From Candidatus Methanomethylophilaceae archaeon (GTDB lineage Archaea; Thermoplasmatota; Thermoplasmata; Methanomassiliicoccales; Methanomethylophilaceae), in NCBI GenBank assembly GCA_050950505.1, contig JBMNHS010000001.1, forward strand, positions 93,687 through 157,686: a stretch of DNA of 64,000 nucleotides. The letters run 5' to 3'. Positions 1,105 to 41,989 of this stretch are shown in pieces. A program made the position numbers and the translations under genes. The notes beneath the pieces are model-generated. The model did no database searches, was not told the DNA's origin, and worked only from the letters and a program-made list of their open reading frames with translations. Each line of letters begins with the position of its first letter. Position 1 is the first letter of the stretch.

Positions 1105-1899
1105 TCATGATTGTTGGCTGTTTGTCGCCGACCCGTACATCAAAACCATGTTTTTGCCGGTTTTCGGATCCTTCGTCAATTCGGCTTCAACATTGAACAC
1201 CGTGCGCATGTTTTCCGAAGTGAGGACATCTTCCGTTTTCCCCATATCATGAATTTTGTGATTGTGGATCATCATTATTCTGTCGCAGTACCGGGCGGCC
1301 ATCGATAAATCGTGAGACACTATCACCACGGTGAGTCCTTCTTCTTTGGACAGGGCGTGAATCAAATCCAGTATGTCGAACTGCGCGCTTATGTCCAAAT
1401 GCAGCGTGGGTTCGTCCATCAGCAATATTTTCGGAGTCTGGGCGAGGGCCCTCGCAATGATTACTTTCTGCCGTTCTCCGCCGCTCATGGTGTTGATGTA
1501 CCGTTCCGCCATATTGGAAATTCCGGCCTTTTCGATGGCGTCGTCGATTATTGCTATGTCGTCATAGGAATCTCCCTGAAACGCTTCCTGGAAGGGCATT
1601 CTTCCCATGGAAACTATTTCCCTCACGGTAAACGAGAATTTGATTTCGTTGGTTTGAGGTATAACGGCAATTTCCCGGGCGATTTCTTTCTTTTTCAGAT
1701 CTTCCAGATCCGTGTCGTGAATCATCACGCATCCCCCTTTGGGACGGAGATTTTTGTTCAGGTTGCCCAACAGAGTGGTTTTTCCGCAACCGTTGGGGCC
1801 GATGATTCCCAGGATCTCCCCCTGAACGAGATCGAAATTTATGTTTTCCAGCACCGGTTTTTCTTTGTAACTGTAACTGAGGTCTTTTGTGCGCAACAT
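1105..1899 (-). CDS. ABC transporter ATP-binding protein (FepC/BtuD type)
   Basis: Walker A GPNGCGKTT, signature LSGGERQ-like MSGGERQKV, Walker B LLMDEPT. I place the start at MLRTKDL (1899). The longer track ORF to 2154 is an upstream read-through. The TGATG overlap with the permease stop indicates translational coupling. Confidence 0.9.
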   Translation of the reverse strand: MLRTKDLSYSYKEKPVLENINFDLVQGEILGIIGPNGCGKTTLLGNLNKNLRPKGGCVMIHDTDLEDLKKKEIAREIAVIPQTNEIKFSFTVREIVSMGRMPFQEAFQGDSYDDIAIIDDAIEKAGISNMAERYINTMSGGERQKVIIARALAQTPKILLMDEPTLHLDISAQFDILDLIHALSKEEGLTVVIVSHDLSMAARYCDRIMMIHNHKIHDMGKTEDVLTSENMRTVFNVEAELTKDPKTGKNMVLMYGSATNSQQS

Positions 1900-2909
1900 C
1901 ACCAACCGACCTCCCTCTTCCGCCTGCGGAGCAGGTATATGAAGTACGGAGCGCCGATGAGGGCCGTCAGTATGCCGACGGGCAACACGCCCAACGACTG
2001 AGCGATTATGTGGGCAAGGTAATCGCATCCCACCAGAAACACCCCTCCCGCCAGGAAGGAAATCGGAATCAGGGTCCGGTTGTCCGGGCCTATGAGAATT
2101 CTCATGATGTGGGGTATGACCAAGCCGACAAAACCTATGGTTCCCACAAAACACACGGCGGCGGCGGTAAGCATCGAAACGAAAACCAGCAGAGTGAGTC
2201 TTACTTTCTTCACATCCACGCCCAGATTCATGGCGTGGGCGTCACCCATCATCATGGCGTTGATTTCTTTGGAATAATACGTTGCGACGGAGACTCCGAT
2301 TGCCACCAAGGGTATCACGATCATGATTTCCGTCCATCTCACTCCGGAAAGGCTGCCCATTCCCCAGAAGACTATGTCGGCGAGTTTCTCGCCCGCCATA
2401 TACGTCAGCAGAGACACCAGGGCCTGCAACAGGGCGCCGACGGCAATACCCGCAAGAAGCAAAGTTTCCATATGGGTTTCGTTGCCGACTCTGGCAAGTC
2501 TGTAAACCAGCAACATCGTTCCCATGCAGGCTATGAAGGCAAACAGAGGAACGGTCAGCATCAGGGCGGTGGAGGTTGCGACGAACATCATCGCGGTTGC
2601 GGCGCCCAAGGACGCTCCCGAAGAAAGACCGAGGATATACGGCGAAGCCATGGGATTTCTGAAAAGAGCCTGCATGACGGCACCGGAAACGGCCAACGCG
2701 CCTCCCACGAGCAGACCCATGACGACTCGGGTGGCGTTGATGTCCACCACAATCGTGCGGTATGTGCTGTTTTTGACGAAAATAGCGGTCAGAACTTCTT
2801 CAAAGGACAGCCACCACAACGGTGCGTATATCAATTCCAGATAAGCGAAGACGGCAAAAGCGGCGACTAAAACCGCTACGGTGAGAGCCACTTTTGTTTT
2901 CTTGTCCAT
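1899..2909 (-). CDS. FecCD/BtuC-family ABC permease
   Basis: 336-aa polytopic membrane protein with the typical FecCD core (RNPMASPYILGLSSGASLG, LAGIAVGALL, GAPYFIYLL). Confidence 0.9.
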   Translation of the reverse strand: MDKKTKVALTVAVLVAAFAVFAYLELIYAPLWWLSFEEVLTAIFVKNSTYRTIVVDINATRVVMGLLVGGALAVSGAVMQALFRNPMASPYILGLSSGASLGAATAMMFVATSTALMLTVPLFAFIACMGTMLLVYRLARVGNETHMETLLLAGIAVGALLQALVSLLTYMAGEKLADIVFWGMGSLSGVRWTEIMIVIPLVAIGVSVATYYSKEINAMMMGDAHAMNLGVDVKKVRLTLLVFVSMLTAAAVCFVGTIGFVGLVIPHIMRILIGPDNRTLIPISFLAGGVFLVGCDYLAHIIAQSLGVLPVGILTALIGAPYFIYLLRRRKREVGW

Positions 2910-2974
2910 CGTCCGGAATCTCCTGTGAATAAAAAGACGGTAAGATGTTTGTTTTAAATCTTTTTAAACTCCGA

Positions 2975-4039
2975 TCAGGGTTTTCTCATGACGAACAGTC
3001 CGATCAGCACTATGATGAACATGGCACCGGCGGTCAGGATCTTCTCGCTGTTTATGTAGAAAATATCCATCACGGATTGGGTGTGGTCGTATTCCTCAAT
3101 CATCGCATCCGAAACCACGGTCAGTCCTTCAGCCGCGGAAGGACAGTAATTGTTCCAGTCGGCATCCATTTTTATGACGACGATGGAGGCGGTTCTGAGA
3201 ACGTTCTTCTGGAACTCTTTTTCGGACATCGGATAGTTTCCGTCAAGGAATATCACGTCCGGGTTGAGCTGCAGAATCAGGGATGCTTCGGCCTCGTAGT
3301 AATTGGCGGACACGTTGGAATTGTATCCTATGTTGTTTCCGCCCGCCAATTCAATCATGCTGACGGCTATCCCTTTGTTGTAGACTCTGAGCTTGCCCTG
3401 ATATTCGTTTACGTACATTGCGTTGACTTTGTTCTCATCGTCGATTTCACCGGCTCTGTCCGTGGCGAGGTCGAAAGCGTCATACATTTTTTCCAGGGCC
3501 TCGGCGGATTCCTTTCCGATCAGAATTGCGATGTTTTCCACAATGTCCAGCACTTCGTTGTAAGTGTAGGCACCGAAACAGAGAACTTTGAATCCGTCGG
3601 CTTCCAGCATTTCTCTGGTGCCTCCGGCCGCTATGGTTCCGGAATAGTCGTTAATGATGATTACGTCGGTATCGAGGTTGAATTTACCGCTCTGCTCCAC
3701 CTGAACCATGGTGCTGTAAATGTAATCCTTATTCGTCGAATAGGAAGAACCCGCGTTCACGGCTTCGATTCCCGATTCCTTTGCAAAATCGTCGGAATAG
3801 GAATCGTAAGCGACTATCATGTCTTTGCCGCCGAGTTCAACGACGGTTTTCGTGAATCCGTATCCCAGTGTGGCCACCTTTTCGGCGGGGGCGTCCAAAG
3901 TCAGCGTGTAGCCCGTTGAGTCGGTGACGGTGATTGAGTCCGCGTATGCGTCGTCGATGTTCACTGCAAACCCGAAGGCCGAGAATATGAATACCGCGGC
4001 GATTGACGCTACGGTTACACTTTTGAAAATGTTGTTCAT
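2975..4039 (-). CDS. ABC substrate-binding protein (BtuF/FhuD-like class) with N-terminal signal anchor and C-terminal TM anchor
   Basis: 354 aa with an N-terminal hydrophobic segment, a periplasmic-binding-protein-like core (PDVIFLDG...) and a C-terminal hydrophobic tail AGAMFIIVLIGLFVMRKP. It lies upstream of the permease and ATPase on the same strand. Confidence 0.75.
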   Translation of the reverse strand: MNNIFKSVTVASIAAVFIFSAFGFAVNIDDAYADSITVTDSTGYTLTLDAPAEKVATLGYGFTKTVVELGGKDMIVAYDSYSDDFAKESGIEAVNAGSSYSTNKDYIYSTMVQVEQSGKFNLDTDVIIINDYSGTIAAGGTREMLEADGFKVLCFGAYTYNEVLDIVENIAILIGKESAEALEKMYDAFDLATDRAGEIDDENKVNAMYVNEYQGKLRVYNKGIAVSMIELAGGNNIGYNSNVSANYYEAEASLILQLNPDVIFLDGNYPMSEKEFQKNVLRTASIVVIKMDADWNNYCPSAAEGLTVVSDAMIEEYDHTQSVMDIFYINSEKILTAGAMFIIVLIGLFVMRKP

Positions 4040-15372: not shown

Positions 15373-16797
15373 TCAGTAGAAATTGTGCAACCGGTTTCCG
15401 GTTCCGAACATAAAGGATATCTTCGGTTTGATTTCTGAAGCCGATGAAATCTCATACTTCACGTCCTGAACCGACTCTGTGAATTCCTGATTGTTTTCTT
15501 CAATCGGCAGGTCTGCCCCATCGGTTTTCACGGATTCGCATATGTCGGAAATGCTGAAACCGAAAGATGAATGCAGGATTTCCGGTTCTTCCAAAACCGC
15601 GGAAACTCTACTGCGCGGTTGCCTTCTTTCCGGAGCTGTTGTCTTCGGAAGAAAATCATATCCCGCGAAGTCCGCATAGTTCACGAGACAGCTTTCCGGA
15701 GATGACGTCTCCGTAACCGCCGATTCCCCGGAATCCGCCGAAGAGAACGCTTCGTATCTCCGCAAAGTGCAGTGATCCGTGTCGCAGGTGGAAATAGTCA
15801 TAATGTTGGCAGATACGGAACCGATGCCGGTTTCATGAATTGCCACGGAAATCTTCGCTTCGGGCAACAGAATCACACAGGGCGGATTGGGGAACGTGGA
15901 GTGTTCTATCTCAGAAGGAAGAGCCGGCAGCTCCTTGGGCGATGTCAGTTCGGGATAACGTCTTGTGTAAAGCACGGGACCGTCGTGGAACCTGTCGAAG
16001 TCCTTGACGAAAGTTTCTTCCGACACCGCAACCGGTTCTTCGATTGCCGGAGATTCTTCACTATAATCTGCTTCAACGGATTCTTCCTTCGCGACCGACT
16101 CTGCCGGTCTGACGTTGTCAAGCATGATTTCCAATTCTATGATGAGGGAATCTTTTGCCGTTGACGTATTTTCTTCGATCGCACACTTCTCGTTATCCGA
16201 TGCTTCCGCAACAACCGTTTCCGAAAACACTTCTCCGGAAGATTTCGCAGACGCCGGCGCGGCCGGAAGTCTCTCGACTTCAATTGCCGTTTCGGGTTTC
16301 ATCGCCGCGGATTCCGTACGGTCCGTTTCGGAAACCCCGGTTATGGGTTCCAGTTCATATTCGGGACCGTCTTCGTAATTCAGGCCTTCCGGGATTTCTA
16401 CCCGTGAGGCATCTTTTGAAGAAGTGGAAACCGCCTGAGGTGATGCCGAACAGTAAAGATTGCTTACAAACGGATTATGGTCACAGGTTCTGGGTTTTAC
16501 CAGATTCAATGCTTCCTCGGAGAACCTGCCGCCGCTGTTTATCGGTTTAGGCTCGTCGAATTCAAAAAACAGATCGTCTTCAAGAGTTGCCAGATAAATC
16601 TCGGATCCCGACGGGAGTTCATGTTTGGAATACCCGTAATTCTCGAGTTTTTTGGCGGAACCGCCGAGATTTCCTCTGATCCATCCTCTTTCAAATCCCT
16701 TTTCCCGCTCATTGGAACGGCGTCCGAATTCCGAAAGCCGTTGCTTCAGAGCTCCCCATAGAGTGCTATCGCTATTTTTGCCTGAGTTCACACTCAT
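15373..16797 (-). CDS. Hypothetical acidic, low-complexity protein
   Basis: 474-aa ORF with no TM segments. It is rich in E, S and P, and I recognise no catalytic or binding motif. Confidence 0.5.
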   Translation of the reverse strand: MSVNSGKNSDSTLWGALKQRLSEFGRRSNEREKGFERGWIRGNLGGSAKKLENYGYSKHELPSGSEIYLATLEDDLFFEFDEPKPINSGGRFSEEALNLVKPRTCDHNPFVSNLYCSASPQAVSTSSKDASRVEIPEGLNYEDGPEYELEPITGVSETDRTESAAMKPETAIEVERLPAAPASAKSSGEVFSETVVAEASDNEKCAIEENTSTAKDSLIIELEIMLDNVRPAESVAKEESVEADYSEESPAIEEPVAVSEETFVKDFDRFHDGPVLYTRRYPELTSPKELPALPSEIEHSTFPNPPCVILLPEAKISVAIHETGIGSVSANIMTISTCDTDHCTLRRYEAFSSADSGESAVTETSSPESCLVNYADFAGYDFLPKTTAPERRQPRSRVSAVLEEPEILHSSFGFSISDICESVKTDGADLPIEENNQEFTESVQDVKYEISSASEIKPKISFMFGTGNRLHNFY

Positions 16798-17910: not shown

Positions 17911-18735
17911 TTATAAGTTCTCTATGGATCCTTTCTCGGCCCTGTCGCGGTATCTCTTCGGAAGAACGAACAATTCGCCGTCTTTGTCAAAACCCACGGA
18001 AGCGGAAACATCGTAGACGTCTTCGATGAGTTTTGAAGTGATTACTTCTTTGGGAGGCCCTATCGCGACAATGCGGCCTTCTTTCATGATGATGCATCGA
18101 TCGCAATATCTCGCCATCAGCGAAATATCGTGTTCCGCGACGAGAATGGTCATATCCGTTTTGACCATGGCGTAAAGGTATTCCATGACTTCCAGCTTGT
18201 ATTTCATGTCAAGATGTGACGTTGGTTCGTCGACCAACATCAACCTGGGCTCCTGAACGTATGCTTTGGCTATCAGAACACGCTGTCTCTCACCGGAAGA
18301 CAGCATGTTCAACTGTCTGTTTTTCAGATGGGCGACTCCGAATTTAACCAACGTTTCTTCGATCAGGGTTTCATCGTCGTCGGTCTCCCACCATACATGT
18401 TTCAGATGGGGATAACGACCCAACATAACAGTTTCAAAAACCGTCAATCCGAAACTGGCTCTCAGTTCCGCAGGAACATTGGCAACTTTTTTGGCAACCT
18501 CCCTCGGGGGCTTGTCCAACACAGTTTCACTGTCGATGAGAATGTCGCCTGACGATGTGGAATGCAGTCGGTTGATGCATTTCATCATCGTGCTTTTGCC
18601 ACAACCGTTGGGTCCGATGAGACCAACCAGCATACCGGACTCCAGAGAGAACGATACGTCTTTGACCGCATGGAATCCGTTTTCGTAATACTTGTTCAAC
18701 GACTTCAGTTCCAACAACGGAGCATTAACCTTCAT
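17911..18735 (-). CDS. ABC transporter ATP-binding protein (FepC/BtuD type)
   Basis: Walker A GPNGCGKST, signature LSSGERQRV, Walker B LMLVDEPTSHLD. It overlaps the upstream permease-fusion gene by 11 nt. Confidence 0.9.
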   Translation of the reverse strand: MKVNAPLLELKSLNKYYENGFHAVKDVSFSLESGMLVGLIGPNGCGKSTMMKCINRLHSTSSGDILIDSETVLDKPPREVAKKVANVPAELRASFGLTVFETVMLGRYPHLKHVWWETDDDETLIEETLVKFGVAHLKNRQLNMLSSGERQRVLIAKAYVQEPRLMLVDEPTSHLDMKYKLEVMEYLYAMVKTDMTILVAEHDISLMARYCDRCIIMKEGRIVAIGPPKEVITSKLIEDVYDVSASVGFDKDGELFVLPKRYRDRAEKGSIENL

Positions 18736-21700
18736 ACATCCGCCCCCTCTTGATAAGCAAATAAGCGAAAACCGGGACTCCGATCATTGTGGTGATTGCC
18801 CCTACCGGCAATTCCTGCCCGTAGTAAAGCATTCTTGCCGCCAAATCGGCCAACATTACCAGCGCCCCTCCCAAGGCTATGGATGCCGGCAGAACCAGCC
18901 GATGATCGCTTCCCAGAACCATACGGCAAACGTGAGGCACCACAAGACCCACAAATCCTATTATTCCGACGAACGCCACGCACACGGATGTGAGAACAGA
19001 GGCCATAATCAACATTATTCTGTTGAACCGTCTTACATCGAGTCCCATCTGCTGGGCCTGGTCTTCACCGAGCAACACAAGATTGAACTCTTTTGCCCAA
19101 ACCAACGGAATCAGAGATAATGCCAGCACCGGAACCAAAACCAACCAAACCTGTTCCCAGACAACGTTTGCGAATGAGCCGAACAGCCAGGACAGCGCAT
19201 TGCTGACTTTCTGTCCGGCCATGGACAGCATAAGTGTCTGGAAGGCGGAGAATGCCAGTCCCACGACCACACCCGCCAAAACGTAATTGATGGATGCGCC
19301 TCCGGATTTCTCCGCGATCAGCATCGTCATTCCGAATGCCAGTATACCTCCTATGATTGCCGTGAAAGCCGTAAGGTATATGGAATGCGGAGAGAACAGA
19401 CCGAAGAATGTGAAATCAAAAGCAATGACCGCCAATGCAGCAGTTCCCGCACCTGCGGAAACCCCCATTATATATGGATCGACCAGTGGGTTTCTGATGA
19501 TTGCCTGGTACATGCTTCCGGCTATGGACAATCCGATGCCCACGGCAAGAGCGACTATGGTCCTCGGAAGTCTGGATTCGTAAACCATCAGTTCATTGTA
19601 ATCCAGTCCCTTTCCTCCTTTCGATATGGCGGAAAGCAAAGAAGAGAACATCTCCGAAACCGATAACGTGACCGTGGGTCCGATGCAGAGACAGACGATA
19701 AACACGACGACCGTCGTTGCGGCTCCGATCAACATCATCACGAACAGCTTGTGTCTGCTCTTGGTGTTGTGCCTCAAATCGTCTCCGGTCAGATAATGAT
19801 TGAACTTATGCCAGGCGTGTCTGTACGGATTTCTGATTTTCAGAACCAATCTGGCTATAACGTATATCAGAATAAGAATAACAAGAACAATCAGCAGGAA
19901 TTCAATCAGCGTCTGCAGCAATGATTTCTCCTCAACGGGTTCGTAAACATATTCGGGAAGGGTTCCGCTTGAAGCGATGAGTCCCGCGTCATTGCCGTAA
20001 ACCATCAGGCCACCTACGAATATTATAGGGGACATTCCGTAATTTTTGACGGTGGAATCGGAATACCATTCCGAAAGAATCCTGCCGTCCAAGGAAACTT
20101 CATACACCGGGGCGGTGAGCGAGTACGGCGTCATGTATATCGATTCGCCGTTTATGAGTATCGGCGGGCCCTTGGTTGACTTTATTTCGCCGTTCATTAT
20201 CCGGTGTTCGCCGGTGATGCTTATTCTGCACAATCCTTTCGTGGTTACAAAATAAGTTCCTTCGAAATCATCCGTTACCACCGGAATATGATAGTTTCCC
20301 GTGAGTCCCAGTGTATCTTTGTCGGCGATAAGGAATATTTTGCTTAATTCGCCGGTTGAAGGATCGAAATCATAAATCCCGATTCCCCCGACCACCGAAC
20401 TCATACCTCTTCCGTCGCTGACGGAGAAAATTAATCTGTATTTTGATTCATGTTCAAAAACGGACACCGCGGACACATTTCCGAATTCGGTGCCGCCTGC
20501 GGTTAAAGTACGGGTGTAAATTTTTTCATCCGCTATGATTTCACCGTCGGCTTTGTCAATCACGTACAGATGTCCGTTCAGTGCCCCCGCGAACATATAA
20601 TCGTCGTAAACCGTGGGGGACACGTAGTAAACCGAACCTCCCATTTGCCGGGACCAAAGCAAATTCAGATTCAGATCGAAACAGTATGCCATTCCGTTTG
20701 TGGCCGTGCAGTAAATCGCACCGGAATCGTAAACAAGCGATCCGGTTCCTCTGAAACTGTAATTGAATCCCGACAGAGGTTTCGCTTCGGCGGGAATCGC
20801 GTCAGCATCGGTCAGAACGGAAAACGCTTTACCACCGAAAGATGTCACATATTCATTTTCGGATATCTTATTTTCATCGAGTACTCCGGGACCTTCCCTC
20901 CAATTGAATTTGTAAATCATCCCTTCGGAAGAAGAGACGTAAATATTTTCGCCGACGATGACCGGCGTGGATGTTTCGTAACTGTTGACTCCCGGGAACC
21001 GGAATTGCCACACCACGCCGCCGTCAAGGTTGAAACATATCACTCTTGGTTGCCCGTCTTCTCCGTCGGATTCATTCTTCGTGGAGAATTTGGCAAATAT
21101 GAAATCTTCGACATAAGTCACGGCGGCGATTATGCCGCTTATTCCGTCGATTTTGTACTCCCACTGAACTTTGATTTCATCTTCCGGTATGACTACATTG
21201 TCCTGTCTGCCGGTCTGGGCCGCGTCTCCCCGTATCATTGTCCATGAGGATTTGAATTCGGGAGTTTCCACGGGAACTGTTCCGGAAGGATAGAATGCCA
21301 GAGCAAGCCCCTTTCCGTCGTATGCATCGGTTAAATCTGCCGATACCCACTTTTTATCGTCGGTGGAGTCGTCCCACCTGTAAACGTTCCAAACGGAAGT
21401 GGATTTGAATCCTGTGGTTCCGCTCGACTCGAAATTACCCCCTGTGTCAGTGTCGGAACCTATAATCTTCTCGTATACCCCGTCTATCTTCAAAGGTCCC
21501 GAATCATAGGTATGCCCGTTGGCCTCCGCGGTATTTTTCAGAACTTCGTCTATGGTCGATCCGGACTCCGCCTCATACCATGACGTTTTTCCGTTTCCCA
21601 TATCAAACAACACATTGCCTTCGGTTCCTGCGCCGTAAGCATCGGATATGTCGGACACCATCGCGAAGGATGACGAAAGCATCAGCAAGGATACGAAGAG

Positions 21701-21748
21701 TGCGATTACTGTTGATTTTCCTTTAATGTCGGGAGCCTCCTTATTCAA
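18725..21748 (-). CDS. Fusion protein: signal anchor + DUF4430-like domain + PQQ-like beta-propeller + TM + FecCD/BtuC permease
   Basis: 1007 aa. Domain layout by residue:
- aa 12-31: hydrophobic anchor.
- aa ~44-155: small domain (NVLFDMGNGKTSWYEA...) paralogous to the N-termini of the two upstream genes.
- aa ~170-595: repeated propeller-blade-like units (VVWQFRF..IYVSSSEGMIYKF, LLWSRQMGG..HLYVIDKADGEI).
- aa 609-636: TM segment.
- aa ~666-1007: complete FecCD permease (RLPRTIVALAVGIGLSIAGSMYQAIIRNPLVDPYIMGVSAGAG).
The predicted topology is self-consistent. Confidence 0.85.
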   Translation of the reverse strand: MNKEAPDIKGKSTVIALFVSLLMLSSSFAMVSDISDAYGAGTEGNVLFDMGNGKTSWYEAESGSTIDEVLKNTAEANGHTYDSGPLKIDGVYEKIIGSDTDTGGNFESSGTTGFKSTSVWNVYRWDDSTDDKKWVSADLTDAYDGKGLALAFYPSGTVPVETPEFKSSWTMIRGDAAQTGRQDNVVIPEDEIKVQWEYKIDGISGIIAAVTYVEDFIFAKFSTKNESDGEDGQPRVICFNLDGGVVWQFRFPGVNSYETSTPVIVGENIYVSSSEGMIYKFNWREGPGVLDENKISENEYVTSFGGKAFSVLTDADAIPAEAKPLSGFNYSFRGTGSLVYDSGAIYCTATNGMAYCFDLNLNLLWSRQMGGSVYYVSPTVYDDYMFAGALNGHLYVIDKADGEIIADEKIYTRTLTAGGTEFGNVSAVSVFEHESKYRLIFSVSDGRGMSSVVGGIGIYDFDPSTGELSKIFLIADKDTLGLTGNYHIPVVTDDFEGTYFVTTKGLCRISITGEHRIMNGEIKSTKGPPILINGESIYMTPYSLTAPVYEVSLDGRILSEWYSDSTVKNYGMSPIIFVGGLMVYGNDAGLIASSGTLPEYVYEPVEEKSLLQTLIEFLLIVLVILILIYVIARLVLKIRNPYRHAWHKFNHYLTGDDLRHNTKSRHKLFVMMLIGAATTVVVFIVCLCIGPTVTLSVSEMFSSLLSAISKGGKGLDYNELMVYESRLPRTIVALAVGIGLSIAGSMYQAIIRNPLVDPYIMGVSAGAGTAALAVIAFDFTFFGLFSPHSIYLTAFTAIIGGILAFGMTMLIAEKSGGASINYVLAGVVVGLAFSAFQTLMLSMAGQKVSNALSWLFGSFANVVWEQVWLVLVPVLALSLIPLVWAKEFNLVLLGEDQAQQMGLDVRRFNRIMLIMASVLTSVCVAFVGIIGFVGLVVPHVCRMVLGSDHRLVLPASIALGGALVMLADLAARMLYYGQELPVGAITTMIGVPVFAYLLIKRGRMYEG

Positions 21749-23114
21749 ATCCTAAATATTCTGTAATTGTCAGGAAGTCTCTGTAGTTGTCTCCGATATA
21801 GTAAGGAATCGGGTCATCGGGGAACAGAACGTCCTGATATAGTATCAAAGTAATTATTTCCATCAACTGAGCGTATCTGGGTCCCGGCAACTGAGCCATC
21901 TCCGCCAACCCTCCGCTCAATAAGTAAATCTGTCCGTTTTTGTAAGCGTCGGTTTGCTTCCATTCCGCTGACATATTGTTCAGCATTGTTTCGTATTCGG
22001 ATTCGGTCGCAAGATAATCGTCCGTGATTATTATCGCCACGTCGGGATTCGCTTTTGCGATCAATTCGGAATTTGATTGAATCCAGCCGTAACTGGAAGA
22101 AAATACGTTTTCGCTTTGCAACCGGTTGAGGATATCGTCAACGTAAGTATTCGATCCCGATACCCAGGGGGCTTTTGTCGCGGACAGGGAGACCAAAGTC
22201 GATTTCGAATCCGTTTGGTTCATACCGATGAGATCGAGTATCTCCGACTCGGCGGAACCCAATAAATCGATTACATCCGCCGAGCGTATTTCATAACCCA
22301 TCACAACGCCCACGATGTAAATATTGTCGAGGATGGTGTCGATACTTTCACCGGCATACAGCACAATGGAATTCACCGTGGTTTTCCTTACCCTTTCCGC
22401 CAATTCATAATGAGCGTACAGTGAACCGTCACACAGCACCAAGTCGGGATTTGATTTCATTATGAGTTCAAAACTGGGATTCACATAATCCCCGATTTCC
22501 ACTATATCCCCGTTCTTCTTTCCTTCTGCGACGGCATCGGGGTAATTGCTGTATTTGTCGGCGCCGACTATCGCATTTGTAGCATTCAGGGAACCCAAAA
22601 TTTCTGTTATGGAAGGTGACAGAGTCACAATCTTCTTTGCCTGAGGATACCCGTATATGGAACGTCCGAACTGATCCACGCCGACCGTGGGGGCTTCGTC
22701 CTCGCCGCAAAATGCCCACGTGGATACGGAATATTCCGAAATGTCTACGTCTGTGTCGACAAGCTTTGTCCAATTCAATTCTTCTGTTTTGACGACCCAG
22801 AAATTCCAGGTTTTTTCTTCGTCATTTGGTATTCCGTTTATCTCGGTGACTTTATTGTCTTCGATGACGAGTTCGTACCCGACTGCGTTACAGGCATATT
22901 CCAAAATCTTTATGGGATCGTCATATTCTTTGAAATCCGCATCCACCCATTGAACATCCCGGTTTCCGAAATCGATGGCTATGCCCGTTGATTGGTAAGC
23001 GAAAGCAGATTGAGTGTTATTTACGAGAGCGACCGTCAGACCGGCTCCGGACAGGAGCAACACGACTGTCAACAATGTCTTGAGTTTTGTCGGGTCCGAT
23101 CTCATTCGCATCAC
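21741..23114 (-). CDS. Fusion protein: signal peptide + DUF4430-like domain + BtuF/FhuD-type substrate-binding protein
   Basis: 457 aa. Residues ~44-137 (GIAIDFGNRDVQWVDA...EINGIP...WNFWVV) are paralogous to the permease-fusion N-domain. Residues ~160-457 form a periplasmic-binding-protein core (KIVTLSPSITEILGSL, PDLVLCDG). It overlaps the downstream gene by 8 nt. Confidence 0.8.
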   Translation of the reverse strand: MMRMRSDPTKLKTLLTVVLLLSGAGLTVALVNNTQSAFAYQSTGIAIDFGNRDVQWVDADFKEYDDPIKILEYACNAVGYELVIEDNKVTEINGIPNDEEKTWNFWVVKTEELNWTKLVDTDVDISEYSVSTWAFCGEDEAPTVGVDQFGRSIYGYPQAKKIVTLSPSITEILGSLNATNAIVGADKYSNYPDAVAEGKKNGDIVEIGDYVNPSFELIMKSNPDLVLCDGSLYAHYELAERVRKTTVNSIVLYAGESIDTILDNIYIVGVVMGYEIRSADVIDLLGSAESEILDLIGMNQTDSKSTLVSLSATKAPWVSGSNTYVDDILNRLQSENVFSSSYGWIQSNSELIAKANPDVAIIITDDYLATESEYETMLNNMSAEWKQTDAYKNGQIYLLSGGLAEMAQLPGPRYAQLMEIITLILYQDVLFPDDPIPYYIGDNYRDFLTITEYLGFE

Positions 23115-23177
23115 ATTGATTTCTCATAAGGGTGTTTTGTAAGAGGTTTCGAAAAGGTTTGTTTAAGGTATTTGGAT

Positions 23178-23747
23178 TTAAGCCTTGAAGGGGCCTTCGT
23201 TCATCCAATCGTCCACATCAATGGGAGTAGGTGCACTTGAACCCGCATACACCGAAAAGAAGAATATCGTGGAAGTAGACTGTATGATCTTGAACTCCTG
23301 ATCGTCGTCATACCCTCCATGGCCCTTGAAACTCAACCAACCATTTGAACTTGCGAAGTAACCCCATTGATCATCTTCAGGAAAGGTCACACTCGCAAGC
23401 ATTGCTTCTTCGCCGGTATCTGAATACAAATAAGCGTTAACCGACCATGAACCTGTTTCATCAACTGTTGAAAGGTATCCTCCACTGAGTTCATACTCGA
23501 GATTGGCATCTTTCATGGCCTTATCGAAACCCTCGGCAGGATTGGCGCCTTTGGCACTGTACCATCCGTTTCGATCATCGTTTGCATCAAAATACATGTA
23601 GAAATGATATTCCGTGGCATCATCACCGAAATGATATTCCGTGGCATCATCACCGGAGTCCATGAGAACACCGACGCCGTATCCGACACCGACACCCACC
23701 AGCAATCCGATTACTACGAATGCAATCAATTTATTGTCAATATCCAT
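23178..23747 (-). CDS. Membrane-anchored DUF4430-like protein
   Basis: I prefer the start at MDIDNKLIAFVV (23747), which is preceded by ggtgaaata. The track ORF extends to 23813. The protein has an N-terminal TM segment, a duplicated GDDATEYHF nonapeptide, then a domain (YFDANDDRNGWYSAKG...) resembling the N-domains of the two downstream genes. Confidence 0.65.
   Translation of the reverse strand: MDIDNKLIAFVVIGLLVGVGVGYGVGVLMDSGDDATEYHFGDDATEYHFYMYFDANDDRNGWYSAKGANPAEGFDKAMKDANLEYELSGGYLSTVDETGSWSVNAYLYSDTGEEAMLASVTFPEDDQWGYFASSNGWLSFKGHGGYDDDQEFKIIQSTSTIFFFSVYAGSSAPTPIDVDDWMNEGPFKA
23601..23654. repeat. Perfect 27-bp tandem duplication (2 copies), in frame inside the CDS
   Basis: gaaatgatattccgtggcatcatcacc occurs at 23601-23627 and again at 23628-23654. 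On the minus strand it encodes GDDATEYHF twice. Confidence 0.95.
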
Positions 23748-23900
23748 TATTTCACCATTTGGTTGGATAAAATATCCAATGCAGACAAATTGTAAGGGGG
23801 ATATATAATCCAATTGGTTCGAACTTATTTTATTAATAATTCGAAATAAATTAAATACGGCGGAAAGTCAGATTTTAAGATTTCTGAGAAACCTGCCCAA

Positions 23901-23908
23901 TTTAAAAA
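23901..23908 (+). promoter_or_regulatory. TATA-box-like element upstream of the candidate structured RNA
   Basis: tttaaaaa lies about 20-25 nt upstream of the first GC-rich hairpin (23925). The same AT-rich tract could serve the minus strand instead. Confidence 0.25.
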
Positions 23909-23924
23909 GTAATATGCACATTAA

Positions 23925-24190
23925 GGTTCGGAGGATTTGTTCAAACAACCGAACCGTAGCGGGGACCAAAACCGGGCAACGACGGGGAAAAAAATCGCAG
24001 AAACCACTTTGATCGTTTCTTCGGAAACCGGTCGGTGCAGAAACTTGCGCAGTACCCCCTCGTCTTTCGGAGCAGTGCTGACCCTCAACCGAGTGGTCGT
24101 GGAATAAAATGACGCCCGGAATCGGATAAGATCCGTATGATTGGCGCGGCTGAAGGCCGCGCTGATATCAGGAATTCTTACATATTTTAG
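23925..24190 (+). ncRNA. Candidate structured noncoding RNA, unassigned (strand tentative)
   Basis: No ORF longer than 30 aa. The stretch is GC-rich relative to its AT-rich flanks. Nested helices read directly from the sequence:
- GGTTCGG 23925-31 / CCGAACC 23949-55.
- CCGGGC 23972-77 / GCCCGG 24114-19.
- GACGGGG 23981-87 / CCCC-t-CGTC 24056-64.
- A 9-bp UUCG-capped hairpin at 24011-33.
- GGTGC 24034-38 / GTACC 24052-56.
- GACCCTC 24080-86 / GAG-t-GGTC 24091-98.
- CGGAT-aag-ATCCG 24123-35.
- GCGCGGC-tgaag-GCCGCGC 24144-62.
T-runs follow on the plus strand at 24184-87 and 24245-49. Confidence 0.35.
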
Positions 24191-24261
24191 CTGATGCTAT
24201 GTTATTTTGATATACTTTGAAGGTAAATTAGTGGTGCAGACCACTTTTTAAATGGAATAAG

Positions 24262-24334
24262 TGCTCCCGTCGGGATTTGAACCCGAGTCGAAGCCTCGAG
24301 AGGGCTCCATGATTGGCCGCTACACTACGGGAGC
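24262..24334 (-). tRNA. tRNA-Glu (CUC), no encoded CCA
   Basis: 73 nt. Acceptor GCUCCCG/CGGGAGC, anticodon arm GAGCC-CUCUCGA-GGCUU, T-arm UCGGG-UUCAAAU-CCCGA. A TATA-like ttatattaa lies about 30 nt upstream. Confidence 0.9.
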
Positions 24335-32535: not shown

Positions 32536-32639
32536 TGGCGGGCCCGTCGGGAATTTCGGTTTCTTTATTGTTGAAACTTTCGAACCCGAGGCGTCTGGCT
32601 TAGAAGGCCAGCGCTATATCCTGGCTAAGCCACAGGCCC
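32536..32639 (-). tRNA. tRNA-Arg (UCU) with 26-nt non-canonical intron in the T-loop (59/60), CCA encoded
   Basis: Acceptor GGGCCUG/CGGGCCC, D-arm GCUU-AGCCAGGAUA-UAGC, anticodon arm CUGGC-CUUCUAA-GCCAG. The T-arm UCGGG-UUCGAA[26 nt]U-CCCGA is interrupted. Discriminator G followed by CCA. Confidence 0.8.
32553..32578 (-). other. tRNA-Arg T-loop intron in an hBHBh' motif
   Basis: Minus-strand fold: the T-stem acts as the outer helix. A 4-bp helix UUCG/CGAA is flanked by 3-nt bulges (AAA on the 5' strand, AUU on the 3' strand). The inner helix is GUUUC/GAAAC with a 9-nt loop. Cutting between the 2nd and 3rd bulge nucleotides removes exactly 26 nt and restores the T-loop UUCGAAU. Confidence 0.7.
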
Positions 32640-41880: not shown

Positions 41881-41989
41881 TGGTGCCGAGACTGGGGTTC
41901 GAACCCAGGACCTTCGGATTTCCCTGGAAGAGGTCTGTAAGACCAGAACCCTATGAGTCCGACGCTCCACCAGGCTGAGCCATCTCGGC
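41881..41989 (-). tRNA. tRNA-Met (CAU), elongator type, with 32-nt canonical intron; CCA encoded (tRNA-Ile2 not excluded)
   Basis: Acceptor GCCGAGA/UCUCGGC, D-arm GCUC/GAGC, anticodon arm UCGGA-CUCAUA[intron]A-UCCGA, T-arm CUGGG-UUCGAAC-CCCAG. It lacks the A1:U72 pair typical of archaeal initiator tRNA. Confidence 0.85.
41920..41951 (-). other. Canonical 37/38 intron of tRNA-Met(CAU)
   Basis: 32 nt. The inner hairpin is GGUCU-uac-AGACC. The bulge-helix-bulge is relaxed, with one mismatch in the central helix. Confidence 0.75.

What the first reader, a model, noticed from the sequence alone, without database searches (positions are those of the whole stretch)
17911..23813. ABC importer whose permease is fused to a large extracellular DUF4430-like + beta-propeller module, with the same small domain repeated on the binding protein and on a third anchored protein
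Four co-directional genes overlap or nearly abut:
- An anchored small-domain protein.
- The small domain fused to a BtuF/FhuD-type binding protein.
- A 1007-aa protein.
- An ATPase.

The 1007-aa protein reads: signal anchor, a small domain of about 110 aa, a region of about 430 aa with PQQ/BamB-like blade repeats, one TM segment, a short cytoplasmic linker, then a complete FecCD/BtuC permease. The predicted topology (out, TM, in, then an N-in permease) is self-consistent, which argues for a real fusion rather than an assembly artefact.

The three N-terminal small domains are clearly paralogous:
- LFDMGNGKTSWYEA
- AIDFGNRDVQWVDA
- YFDANDDRNGWYSA

They resemble what I recall of DUF4430, the transcobalamin/intrinsic-factor C-terminal-like domain. 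Surface beta-propeller proteins (BtuG) and other accessory B12 binders are known to feed BtuB in Bacteroides.

My inference is that this locus is an archaeal cell-surface corrinoid (or other tetrapyrrole/metallophore) capture device wired directly onto the permease. I know of no characterised BtuC/FecCD permease carrying its own propeller.
Basis: partly seen in the sequence, partly recalled or inferred. Interest (0 to 1): 0.75.

Follow-up and report, generated by a model that had tools for sequence, protein, structure and literature searches.

The report
Archaeal B12-type importer with built-in capture module
A gut-type methanogenic archaeon encodes a BtuCDF-like ABC importer whose membrane permease carries a large external domain (a transcobalamin-like fold plus a beta-propeller), probably an undescribed surface machine for scavenging vitamin-B12-type cofactors.

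Summary
Four minus-strand, overlapping or nearly abutting genes encode an anchored small protein, an extended Peripla_BP_2 binding protein, a 1007-aa protein and an ABC ATPase. The 1007-aa protein reads TM, ~125-aa domain, PQQ/BamB-like propeller, TM, basic linker, FecCD permease.

The fusion is real. About 88 protein clusters and about 50 species-level Methanomassiliicoccales genomes keep it colinear, with the same cassette around it.

The three small domains are weakly similar pairwise but homologous by profile comparison (93-95.5% probability; controls below 1%).

Pfam does not call DUF4430 at threshold. However, the AlphaFold model of the binding protein's N-domain (pLDDT 87.5) has transcobalamin and intrinsic-factor beta-domains as its nine best PDB matches. 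The permease N-domain is a beta-grasp closest by TM-score to 3U7Z, from the same CATH superfamily.

In 10 of 38 loci with enough flank, CobD-CbiB-CbiZ-CobS-CobY genes follow the ATPase directly.

Best reading: a corrinoid-scavenging type II ABC importer with surface capture domains wired to permease and binding protein. Caveats: the transporter cores are not substrate-diagnostic, there is no binding data, and the propeller's role is unknown.

It is a new variant of a known kind (predicted SLBB B12 scavengers; Bacteroides BtuG/BtuH).

The parts
23814..24260 (-). Non-coding leader and promoter region between tRNA-Glu (24261-24334) and the first gene of the cassette
   Evidence: AT-rich stretch just upstream of the start. 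No Rfam family, including no cobalamin riboswitch, at gathering or at E<=10.
23178..23813 (-). Gene 1: membrane-anchored small protein (211-aa maximal ORF; probable start at the ATG at 23747 after GGTGA, giving 189 aa)
   Evidence: No Pfam or NCBIfam hit. Family found upstream of the SBP in 28 of 39 loci with enough flank.
23673..23729 (-). TM anchor of the small protein (aa 29-47 of the long ORF)
   Evidence: Kyte-Doolittle peak 2.47; the rest of the protein is acidic.
23181..23618 (-). Single ~145-aa extracellular module of the small protein (YHFYMYFDAN..GWYSA ... GPFKA). Its N-terminal ~55 residues are homologous to the small domains of the SBP and the permease.
   Evidence: Module alignment of 45 copies; orthologues carry 1 or 2 modules. 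hhalign vs permease-N: 93.1%, E 3e-7. hhalign vs SBP-N: 93.4%, E 2.5e-7. Controls below 1%.
21741..23114 (-). Gene 2: substrate-binding protein, 457 aa, N-terminally anchored
   Evidence: Adjacent to the fusion gene in 40 of 45 loci with enough flank.
23022..23078 (-). TM anchor or signal sequence of the SBP (aa 13-31)
22665..22994 (-). SBP N-domain (aa 41-150): transcobalamin beta-domain-like (SLBB / beta-grasp) fold
   Evidence: AF2 pLDDT 87.5, pTM 0.82. The nine best Foldseek PDB hits are all transcobalamin or intrinsic factor, TMq 0.50-0.58, prob 0.97-1.00, E 0.009-0.09. Sub-threshold DUF4430 hits in 4 of 34 orthologues. Only 48 representatives in 1.84e9 proteins; wherever Pfam domains were checked the domain sits directly before Peripla_BP_2.
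21918..22631 (-). Peripla_BP_2 (class III, BtuF/FhuD-type) core of the SBP (aa 162-399)
   Evidence: Pfam E 4e-24. Closest solved relative is 4M7O 'iron-binding protein' (2e-18), then siderophore and heme SBPs.
18725..21748 (-). Gene 3: 1007-aa fusion protein (ectodomain plus FecCD permease)
   Evidence: About 88 orthologous clusters of 960-1010 aa with the same domains. Colinear alignment of 84 sequences.
21656..21712 (-). TM1 / signal anchor of the fusion protein (aa 13-31)
21254..21625 (-). Permease N-domain (aa 42-165): beta-grasp domain with a ~20-aa Gly/Thr-rich insertion, paralogous to the SBP N-domain
   Evidence: AF2 pLDDT 91.6. Foldseek top hits are beta-grasp folds; best TMq is 3U7Z (0.40/0.53), which is CATH 2.170.130.30 with the transcobalamin beta-domains. 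hhalign vs SBP-N: 95.5%, E 1.4e-8 over 95 columns.
19949..21241 (-). PQQ/BamB-like beta-propeller (aa ~170-600). Eight blade-like repeats can be read in the family consensus (inference, not modelled).
   Evidence: PQQ_2 33.3 bits above its gathering score; Beta-prop_ACSF4 hit below its cutoff. Profile vs PDB: Cake8/9/10 ~1e-24, 3HXJ 2e-11, BamB 1e-9. Consensus.
19853..19909 (-). TM2 (aa 614-632), returning the chain to the cytoplasm
   Evidence: Strongest hydropathy peak, 3.27.
19748..19852 (-). Cytoplasmic basic linker (aa 633-667)
   Evidence: K+R=9, D+E=2, consistent with the positive-inside rule.
18728..19747 (-). FecCD / BtuC-type permease core (aa 668-1007)
   Evidence: Pfam FecCD E 5e-82. 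NCBIfam best match is archaeal BtuC PRK09535, below its cutoff. PDB: FhuB 7e-51, BtuC 3e-44, HI1471 6e-43, HmuU 1.5e-42.
17911..18735 (-). Gene 4: ABC ATPase (BtuD/FecE-type), 274 aa. Walker A GPNGCGKS, signature LSSGERQR and Walker B LMLVDEP are read directly from the translation.
   Evidence: ABC_tran E 5e-31. Best NCBIfam matches are the F420-0 and corrinoid ABC ATPases, below their cutoffs. Present in 43 of 45 loci with enough flank.

Best explanation
This is a type II (BtuCD-F / FecCD-class) ABC importer operon of a Methanomassiliicoccales archaeon, elaborated for capturing corrinoids (cobamides or cobinamide-type precursors) at the cell surface.

Shown:
- The permease carries about 580 extracellular residues, made of a transcobalamin-like beta-grasp (SLBB) domain and a PQQ/BamB-type propeller. 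This ectodomain is held between a signal anchor and an extra TM helix that returns the chain to the cytoplasm ahead of the normal N-in BtuC core.
- The membrane-anchored binding protein carries a paralogous transcobalamin-like domain directly in front of its BtuF-type core.
- A third anchored protein carries a module whose N-terminal half belongs to the same domain family.

Inferred mechanism:
- The SLBB domains bind corrinoid, as the beta-domain of transcobalamin and intrinsic factor does, and concentrate it at the membrane.
- The anchored small protein and the SBP's N-domain capture ligand and pass it into the cleft of the SBP core.
- The SBP docks on the permease dimer, which in this genome is a homodimer and so displays two ectodomains flanking the docking site.
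- The ATPase dimer drives import.
- In many relatives the imported corrinoid is handed to the adjacent CbiZ/CbiB/CobD/CobY/CobS salvage and remodelling enzymes.
- The propeller most likely acts as a docking or hand-over platform, or as an additional ligand-binding surface. Its exact role is open.
For: Architecture.

The fusion is genuine: about 88 clusters of 960-1010 aa carry propeller plus FecCD; 84 sequences align colinearly with few gaps; 53 loci were found in species-representative genomes, nearly all Methanomassiliicoccales.

Cassette conservation, among loci with enough flank: SBP 40/45, ATPase 43/45, small protein 28/39.

Paralogy of the three small domains: hhalign 95.5%, 93.1% and 93.4% (E 1.4e-8 to 3e-7), against below 1% for reversed or column-shuffled controls. 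An intermediate N-domain in L039 matches both profiles.

Fold: the SBP N-domain model (pLDDT 87.5) has nine best PDB matches that are all transcobalamin or intrinsic factor, including the isolated human TC beta-domain bound to cyanocobalamin (5NP4, TMq 0.52 / TMt 0.54); haptocorrin also appears. The permease N-domain model (pLDDT 91.6) is a beta-grasp with best TMq to 3U7Z. 3U7Z shares CATH 2.170.130.30 with the cobalamin-binding beta-domains (PMC13385337). DUF4430 is the most recurrent weak Pfam hit.

Substrate context: CobD-CbiB-CbiZ-CobS-CobY lie directly downstream of the ATPase in 10 of 38 loci with at least 5 kb of flank. These include Ca. Methanoplasma termitum and the most divergent orthologues at 33-34% identity.

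Domain coupling: the SBP N-domain family has only 48 representatives in 1.84e9 proteins, and wherever Pfam domains were checked it is directly N-terminal to Peripla_BP_2.

Biology, from papers: all catabolic methyltransferases of this order use corrinoid proteins (PMC5011839). BtuC paralogues are unusually abundant in the order (PMC10804542). A 94%-complete Methanomassiliicoccus MAG lacks the de novo B12 pathway (PMC7824343). Burroughs et al. predicted surface transcobalamin-like SLBB proteins to scavenge B12 (PMC1796856).
Against: - No binding or transport data exist.
- Pfam DUF4430 is never reached at its gathering score (best 17 bits against 23.8), and 0 of 47 permease N-domains hit it.
- Foldseek E-values are modest (0.009-0.09; none at or below 1e-3).
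- The SBP-N model used a mixed MSA dominated by permease N-domains.
- The SBP core is closest to an 'iron-binding protein' and to siderophore and heme SBPs. BtuF is not found at E<=1e-3.
- The permease core is as close to FhuB and HmuU as to BtuC. All NCBIfam BtuC/BtuD/BtuF matches are below their cutoffs.
- The window itself has no cobamide genes next to the operon, and 28 of 38 loci lack them.
- There is no cobalamin riboswitch, although none would be expected in archaea.
- For the small protein, only about 55 residues of its ~145-aa module align with the other two domains.
- Burroughs et al. noted that archaeal SLBB proteins might scavenge a different metabolite.
Confidence: 0.6

Rival explanations
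1. The same architecture, but the substrate is an iron chelate (siderophore or heme) or another metallated tetrapyrrole or metal chelate rather than a corrinoid. The beta-grasp domains then bind that ligand, or serve only in protein-protein contacts.
For: Source annotations read 'iron chelate uptake ABC transporter family permease' and 'Fe3+-siderophore transport system'. The SBP core is closest to 4M7O 'iron-binding protein' and to siderophore and heme SBPs. The permease core's best PDB match is FhuB. Most loci (28 of 38) have no cobamide genes nearby. Burroughs et al. raised the possibility of a different metabolite for archaeal SLBB proteins.
Against: Ten loci from diverse lineages place the cassette directly upstream of the CobD-CbiB-CbiZ-CobS-CobY cluster. 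The nine best structural matches of the SBP N-domain are exclusively cobalamin carriers. FecCD-class sequence similarity is known to be a poor predictor of substrate. The window has a second, plain SBP-FecCD-ATPase system that could serve iron chelates.
Confidence: 0.2
2. The ectodomain and the extra domains are not ligand-capture devices. They are envelope scaffolds or adhesins that anchor or space the transporter in the archaeal envelope, or attach the cell to partner bacteria. The importer works like an ordinary BtuCDF system.
For: BamB-type PQQ-like propellers are typically protein-interaction scaffolds. Relatives of the SBP N-domain occur in giant proteins with BspA-type LRR, Flg_new and CarboxypepD_reg repeats, which are typical of adhesin-like surface proteins. 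A paper notes btuCDF next to adhesin-like proteins in one strain (PMC10804542). Burroughs et al. proposed a tethering role for the domains fused to SLBB.
Against: The small domain is always placed directly in front of the SBP core wherever checked, even in the giant proteins. That fits a role with the binding site rather than with the stalk. Three paralogous transcobalamin-like domains in one operon are hard to explain by anchoring alone.
Confidence: 0.15
3. The 1007-aa ORF is an assembly or gene-calling artefact that joins a surface propeller protein to a permease.
For: A few loci show the gene split into two ORFs (L030, L037, L044, L045). One shows an exact duplicated module (L018) that looks like an assembly error.
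Against: About 88 independent clusters from NCBI, ENA, JGI and Logan, including complete or near-complete chromosomes of 1.49 and 1.59 Mb, keep one uninterrupted ORF of 960-1010 aa. The topology needs the extra TM2 and basic linker, both of which are conserved.
Confidence: 0.01

Closest known systems
BtuCD-BtuF vitamin B12 importer (type II ABC importer; E. coli BtuC2D2F, and the Halobacterium BtuFCD corrinoid transporter)
   Same: Same three components and gene order logic: a Peripla_BP_2 binding protein, a FecCD permease and an ABC ATPase, translationally coupled. The permease core aligns to BtuC over its whole length at E 3e-44. As in other archaea, the cassette often lies next to the cobinamide salvage gene cbiZ.
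   Different: The permease has about 660 extra N-terminal residues: signal anchor, SLBB-like domain, propeller, an extra TM and a linker. The binding protein has an extra ~110-aa N-domain and a membrane anchor. A third anchored paralogue-bearing protein is encoded upstream. The cores are not closer to BtuC/BtuF than to FhuB, HmuU or siderophore SBPs.
Transcobalamin / intrinsic factor / haptocorrin beta-domain and its prokaryotic relatives (SLBB transcobalamin-like clade of Burroughs et al. 2007; Pfam DUF4430; CATH 2.170.130.30, e.g. 3U7Z)
   Same: The fold matches: the nine best PDB hits of the SBP N-domain model are these proteins, and 3U7Z is the best TM-score hit of the permease N-domain. 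The location is extracellular. Paralogous copies occur in one operon, there is a fusion to a beta-propeller, and the context is a transporter with a B12-scavenging role, all as predicted for the prokaryotic clade (PMC1796856).
   Different: No member reaches the Pfam DUF4430 threshold. There is no alpha/alpha-toroid partner domain; instead the partner is a BtuF-type SBP core or a propeller. The transporter is of the FecCD/BtuCD type with covalent fusion to permease and SBP, not the CbiO/CbiQ (ECF) operons described in 2007.
Bacteroides BtuG / BtuH / BtuJ surface cobamide-capture lipoproteins working with BtuB
   Same: The concept is the same: extra surface-exposed binders, one of them a beta-propeller, sit on or next to the transporter and feed scavenged cobamides into it in a competitive gut habitat (PMC6143338, PMC10404256, PMC13616437).
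   Different: There is no detectable sequence relationship. The propeller here is PQQ/BamB-like, and BtuG is not among the 60 listed of 66 PDB sequence matches. The partner is an inner-membrane-type ABC permease in a cell without a bacterial outer membrane, not a TonB-dependent barrel. Here the propeller is covalently fused to the transporter.
BamB and other PQQ-like eight-bladed propellers (Pfam PQQ_2; archaeal surface protein 3HXJ)
   Same: Sequence-level membership of the PQQ-like repeat propeller class.
   Different: It is fused between an SLBB-like domain and a transporter. There is no evidence for PQQ binding or dehydrogenase function, and the function here is unknown.

Membership tests
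Type II ABC importer (BtuCD-F / FecCD class) | Permease with a FecCD (PF01032) domain | tested here: met
   E 4.6e-82, profile positions 2-311 of 311. Full-length alignment to BtuC, FhuB, HmuU and HI1471 structures.
Type II ABC importer (BtuCD-F / FecCD class) | Class III binding protein (Peripla_BP_2, PF01497) encoded with the permease | tested here: met
   E 4.1e-24, profile positions 1-231 of 235. Adjacent in 40 of 45 loci with enough flank.
Type II ABC importer (BtuCD-F / FecCD class) | Cognate ABC ATPase with Walker A, signature and Walker B motifs | tested here: met
   ABC_tran E 4.7e-31. GPNGCGKS, LSSGERQR and LMLVDEP are read in the translation.
BtuCDF sensu stricto (corrinoid-specific) | NCBIfam equivalog scores for BtuC, BtuD or BtuF above the curated cutoffs | tested here: not met
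   BtuC PRK09535 scores 214 bits against a cutoff of 461. Corrinoid ATPase PRK09536 scores 214 against 537. BtuF scores 27 against 234.
BtuCDF sensu stricto (corrinoid-specific) | Transport or binding of cobalamin or other corrinoids | not testable with these tools
   Only contextual support: cobamide salvage genes lie downstream in 10 of 38 loci.
Pfam DUF4430 (PF14478) | HMM score at or above the gathering threshold (23.8 bits) | tested here: not met
   The window proteins give no hit at E<=10. Among orthologues, 4 of 34 SBP N-domains hit sub-threshold (best E 0.0025), one small protein hits at 17 bits, and 0 of 47 permease N-domains hit.
Transcobalamin-like SLBB / CATH 2.170.130.30 fold | Structural similarity to the cobalamin-binding beta-domain of transcobalamin, intrinsic factor or haptocorrin | tested here: met
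   SBP N-domain model: the nine best PDB hits are all transcobalamin or intrinsic factor, TMq 0.50-0.58, prob 0.97-1.00, E 0.009-0.09. For the permease N-domain the result is weaker: a beta-grasp with best TMq to 3U7Z at 0.40/0.53 and E 0.27.
Transcobalamin-like SLBB / CATH 2.170.130.30 fold | Conservation of the cobalamin-contacting hairpin and residues | not tested
   This needs residue-level superposition of the models on 5NP4 or 2BB5.
PQQ-like / BamB-like beta-propeller | Pfam PQQ_2 above its gathering score, and profile similarity to solved PQQ-like propellers | tested here: met
   33.3 bits against 27.6. Profile against PDB gives E 8e-25 to 1e-9.
PQQ-like / BamB-like beta-propeller | Closed propeller of eight blades | not tested
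BtuG family (Bacteroides surface B12-binding propeller) | Sequence homology to BtuG | tested here: not met
   No BtuG chain appears among the 60 listed of 66 PDB matches at E<=1 for the propeller profile. Any resemblance is functional analogy only.

The most novel reading that the evidence does not exclude
Methanomassiliicoccales possess an order-specific cobamide capture relay built from three paralogous transcobalamin-like domains and a propeller that is covalently part of the ABC permease. If so, this would be, as far as I could find, the first ABC importer whose membrane subunit carries its own extracellular ligand-capture module. It would be convergent with mammalian transcobalamin and with Bacteroides BtuG/BtuH. 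It would give these corrinoid-hungry methanogens very high-affinity scavenging in the gut, and would offer a specific surface target for methane mitigation.
Probability: 0.4. Interest if true: 0.8.

Novelty: new variant of a known kind. Interest (0 to 1): 0.62.

Why it matters
Methanomassiliicoccales make methane only through corrinoid-dependent methyltransferases. At least some members appear unable to make the corrin ring, so how they obtain cobamides in the rumen and the human gut bears directly on their fitness and on methane emission.

A published survey of the order noted many BtuC clades, but from a tree built on 281 aligned permease positions. It did not mention that one clade carries a ~580-residue extracellular module.

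If the transcobalamin-like domains bind corrinoids, three things would follow:
- The transcobalamin beta-domain fold would be shown to be used for B12 capture in archaea as well as in animals.
- This would be the first case I could find of a type II ABC permease with a built-in capture domain.
- It would give a tractable set of soluble ectodomains for testing cobamide selectivity, and a surface-exposed, lineage-specific target.

Tried and rejected
- Pairwise BLASTP of the three small domains was too weak to decide paralogy. A profile-vs-sequence HMM placed all four SBPs above 400 shuffles but at only 8-13 bits, and did not separate the small proteins. hhalign was needed.
- Two of the three homologous-protein searches (SBP N-domain as a single sequence, then as an alignment) returned only 1-2 hits because of the word index. 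The exhaustive search replaced them.
It worked with a 63-column conserved block.
- Profile searches of both N-domains against PDB sequences gave nothing meaningful: a Kelch-like designer repeat for the permease-N insertion, and RIPK1 at E 0.08 for SBP-N.
- A cobalamin riboswitch or other RNA element in the 430-nt leader: none found.
- Cobamide genes inside the window: none found.
- The 1538-aa 'double ectodomain' variant in L018 was rejected as a likely assembly artefact, because the repeat is residue-identical and N-runs lie nearby.

Full report
**1. What is in the sequence.**

Four co-directional ORFs lie on the minus strand exactly where the finding places them. In order of transcription they are:

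| Gene | Coordinates | Length | Product |
|---|---|---|---|
| 1 | 23813..23178 | 211 aa | anchored small protein |
| 2 | 23114..21741 | 457 aa | extended binding protein (SBP) |
| 3 | 21748..18725 | 1007 aa | ectodomain-permease fusion |
| 4 | 18735..17911 | 274 aa | ABC ATPase |

Genes 2 and 3 overlap by 8 nt and genes 3 and 4 by 11 nt. Gene 1 is separated from gene 2 by 63 nt. Gene 1 most likely starts at the internal ATG at 23747, which follows a GGTGA motif, giving 189 aa.

Pfam finds Peripla_BP_2 in the 457-aa protein (aa 162-399). In the 1007-aa protein it finds FecCD (aa 679-1000, E 5e-82) and PQQ_2 (33.3 bits against a gathering score of 27.6). It finds ABC_tran in the last protein. 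NCBIfam gives BtuC, FhuB, FecCD and F420-0 type matches, all below their cutoffs. The first protein and the N-terminal ~150 residues of the binding protein have no Pfam or NCBIfam match.

Surrounding genes are archaeal housekeeping genes: topoisomerase VI-B, class-I LysRS, HisRS, a DRG GTPase and NadE.

**2. Topology.**

A hydropathy and charge analysis gives the following for the 1007-aa protein:
- TM1 at aa 13-31, preceded by a basic N-terminus.
- An acidic stretch of 582 residues (D+E 82, K+R 41).
- A very hydrophobic TM2 at aa 614-632.
- A 35-residue linker with K+R=9 and D+E=2.
- The FecCD core.

The binding protein and the small protein each have one N-terminal TM segment followed by an acidic body.

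**3. The fusion is real and conserved.**

I searched the ectodomain alone (aa 1-657) against 5.8 billion proteins. It returned 90 clusters, of which about 88 are 960-1010 aa and nearly all carry precomputed propeller and FecCD Pfam domains. They come from NCBI, ENA, JGI and Logan. The named ones are Methanomassiliicoccales, including Ca. Methanoplasma termitum 'BtuC1' on a complete 1.49-Mb chromosome. Eighty-four full-length sequences align colinearly with few gaps from the N-domain to the C-terminus.

A scan of one genome per GTDB species with a conserved blade motif found 53 loci. Nearly all are labelled Methanomassiliicoccales, Methanomethylophilaceae or Thermoplasmata. An assembly artefact is therefore excluded. 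The few split or duplicated versions (L030, L037, L044, L045, L018) look like MAG errors.

**4. The cassette and its neighbours.**

I annotated all loci with phmmer seeds and counted features among loci with enough flanking sequence.

| Feature | Loci |
|---|---|
| Extended binding protein directly upstream | 40 of 45 |
| ATPase downstream | 43 of 45 |
| Member of the small-protein family upstream | 28 of 39 |
| Second, plain FecCD gene between fusion and ATPase | 11 of 45 |
| CobD-CbiB-CbiZ-CobS-CobY cluster directly after the ATPase | 10 of 38 |

The second FecCD gene implies a heterodimeric permease with one ectodomain in that subclade. The window's version would be a homodimer with two ectodomains (inference).

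The most informative result is the cobamide cluster. It comprises L-threonine-phosphate decarboxylase-like CobD, CbiB, CbiZ, CobS and a CobY-like nucleotidyltransferase, sometimes with CobT. The loci carrying it include Ca. M. termitum and the most divergent orthologues at 33-34% identity. These are the archaeal corrinoid salvage and nucleotide-loop enzymes (established knowledge of the pathway). The window itself has no such genes.

**5. The small domains are paralogous.**

Pairwise BLASTP is marginal (E 0.017, 0.057, none). I built alignments of 84 permease N-domains, 42 SBP N-domains and 45 small-protein modules, and hhalign then gave:

| Pair | Probability | E-value | Aligned columns |
|---|---|---|---|
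| permease-N vs SBP-N | 95.5% | 1.4e-8 | 95 |
| permease-N vs small-protein module | 93.1% | 3e-7 | 51 |
| SBP-N vs small-protein module | 93.4% | 2.5e-7 | 58 |

Reversed and column-shuffled controls all stayed below 1%.

The N-domain of a second, divergent cassette in L039 matches both the permease-N profile (59 bits) and the SBP-N profile (E 1.5e-5).

The small proteins consist of a TM anchor plus one or two ~145-aa modules ending in GPFA. Only the first ~55 residues of each module align to the other two classes.

**6. What the small domain is.**

Pfam does not call DUF4430 at threshold anywhere. It is nevertheless the most recurrent weak hit: 4 of 34 SBP N-domains (best E 0.0025), one small protein at 17 bits, and 0 of 47 permease N-domains. 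Profile searches against PDB sequences were uninformative.

Structure prediction was decisive.
- The permease N-domain model is confident (pLDDT 91.6, pTM 0.82). It matches beta-grasp folds, and its best query TM-score is to 3U7Z (0.40/0.53, 18% identity).
- 3U7Z belongs to CATH 2.170.130.30 together with the cobalamin-binding beta-domains of transcobalamin-1, transcobalamin-2 and intrinsic factor (PMC13385337).
- The SBP N-domain lacks the ~20-residue Gly/Thr-rich insertion. Its model (pLDDT 87.5, pTM 0.82) has nine best PDB matches that are all transcobalamin or intrinsic factor, with TMq 0.50-0.58 and probability 0.97-1.00.
- Those nine include the isolated human transcobalamin beta-domain bound to cyanocobalamin (5NP4, TMq 0.52 / TMt 0.54). 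Transcobalamin 2V3N (TMq 0.59) and haptocorrin also appear further down.

E-values are modest (0.009-0.09), and the MSA for this model was dominated by permease N-domains. I therefore treat this as strong fold-level support but not proof of ligand specificity.

**7. Distribution of the SBP N-domain.**

An exhaustive phmmer search of 1.84 billion representative proteins finds only 48 proteins at E<=1e-3. Most are 440-480 aa.

The larger ones have BspA-type LRRs, Flg_new repeats or CarboxypepD_reg repeats. In every case checked the domain lies directly N-terminal to Peripla_BP_2, and one protein has two tandem [N-domain + SBP] units. The domain is thus a dedicated partner of this kind of binding protein.

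**8. The propeller.**

A 22-sequence profile of aa 160-605 matches PQQ-like propellers in the PDB: designer Cake8/9/10 at about 1e-24, the archaeal 3HXJ at 2e-11 and BamB at 1e-9. BtuG does not appear among the 60 listed of 66 matches at E<=1. Eight blade-like repeats can be read in the family consensus; this is an inference, as the propeller was not modelled. Its function is open.

**9. Substrate.**

The transporter cores do not discriminate between substrates. The SBP core is closest to 4M7O 'iron-binding protein' and to siderophore and heme SBPs. The permease core is about equally close to FhuB, BtuC, HI1471 and HmuU.

The corrinoid assignment therefore rests on three things:
- The transcobalamin-like fold present in three proteins of the operon.
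- The repeated adjacency to cobamide salvage genes.
- The biology of the order. All its methanogenic methyltransferases use corrinoid proteins (PMC5011839). BtuC paralogues are unusually abundant in it (PMC10804542). A 94%-complete Methanomassiliicoccus MAG lacks de novo B12 synthesis (PMC7824343).

I put about 0.6 on a corrinoid-scavenging importer, about 0.2 on another chelate, and about 0.15 on a scaffold or adhesion role for the extra domains.

**10. Comparison with what is known, and novelty.**

The core is an ordinary type II ABC importer. The idea of surface transcobalamin-like (SLBB) domains scavenging B12 in prokaryotes was predicted in 2007 (PMC1796856). That prediction included paralogous copies in one operon and a beta-propeller fusion, but with CbiO/CbiQ-type transporters.

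Bacteroides BtuG, BtuH and BtuJ are experimentally established analogues that work on an outer-membrane transporter.

Three things appear to be undescribed:
- Covalent fusion of the SLBB-plus-propeller module to a FecCD permease through an extra TM helix.
- Fusion of the same domain to the BtuF-type binding protein.
- Conservation of both across an archaeal order.

The 2024 survey of BtuC in Methanomassiliicoccales does not mention any of this. Eight papers in the library mention DUF4430, none in its title or abstract. I rate the finding as a new variant of a known kind, with interest 0.62.

Noticed in passing
window 1105-4039 (minus strand): A second, plain FecCD-class importer: Peripla_BP_2 SBP (2975-4039), FecCD permease (1899-2909) and ABC ATPase (1105-2154). 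It has no N-domain and no propeller. It could serve a different chelate, such as iron.
   Followed up: partly
window about 23601-23654 (small protein aa 54-71): A perfect tandem duplication of nine residues, GDDATEYHF-GDDATEYHF, lies between the TM anchor and the module of the small protein. It is not seen in the orthologues inspected.
   Followed up: no
L008, L010, L019, L020, L022, L049, L051, L053: Contigs carrying this archaeal cassette sit in GTDB species-representative bins labelled Prevotella hominis, Bacteroidaceae, Bifidobacteriaceae, Dialister hominis, Lachnospiraceae, Firmicutes CAG:194 and Eggerthellaceae. This is most likely mis-binned Methanomassiliicoccales DNA rather than horizontal transfer.
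   Followed up: no
L018:9044-13660: A 1538-aa version of the fusion contains a residue-identical second copy of the N-domain plus propeller module, on a contig with N-runs nearby. It is probably an assembly artefact, not a real double ectodomain.
   Followed up: partly
L039:525-6073 (opposite strand to the main cassette): A second, divergent cassette: SBP with N-domain, an ectodomain ORF of 634 aa overlapping a FecCD ORF of 523 aa, and an ATPase. Its N-domain matches both the permease-N and SBP-N profiles, which suggests that the two domain classes diverged by duplication within this system.
   Followed up: partly
L002/L055, L034, L039, L040, L043, L044, L047, L052, L053, L056 (also L018 and L048): A subclade carries an extra plain FecCD gene between the fusion gene and the ATPase gene. 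This implies a heterodimeric permease with a single ectodomain, unlike the window's presumed homodimer.
   Followed up: partly
proteins P0104, P0111, P0126, P0131: The SBP N-domain plus Peripla_BP_2 unit also occurs at the C-terminus of giant surface proteins with BspA-type leucine-rich repeats, Flg_new repeats or CarboxypepD_reg repeats. These are binding proteins on long adhesin-like stalks.
   Followed up: partly
window 15373-16797 (minus strand): A 474-aa acidic, Ser/Glu-rich ORF with no Pfam match lies between the Na+/H+ exchanger-like gene and the TerC-like gene, just downstream of the operon.
   Followed up: no
window 41884-41989 and 32581-32639 (minus strand): Rfam calls a 106-nt tRNA, probably intron-containing, and a 59-nt borderline tRNA (29.6 bits). 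ARAGORN reports neither. ARAGORN in turn reports a tRNA-Asp at 1015-1090 that is not in the Rfam list.
   Followed up: no
window 23814-24260: An unusually long non-coding leader of about 430 nt lies between tRNA-Glu and the first gene of the cassette. It contains a GC-rich hairpin (GCGCGGCC..GGCCGCGC) and has no Rfam match.
   Followed up: partly
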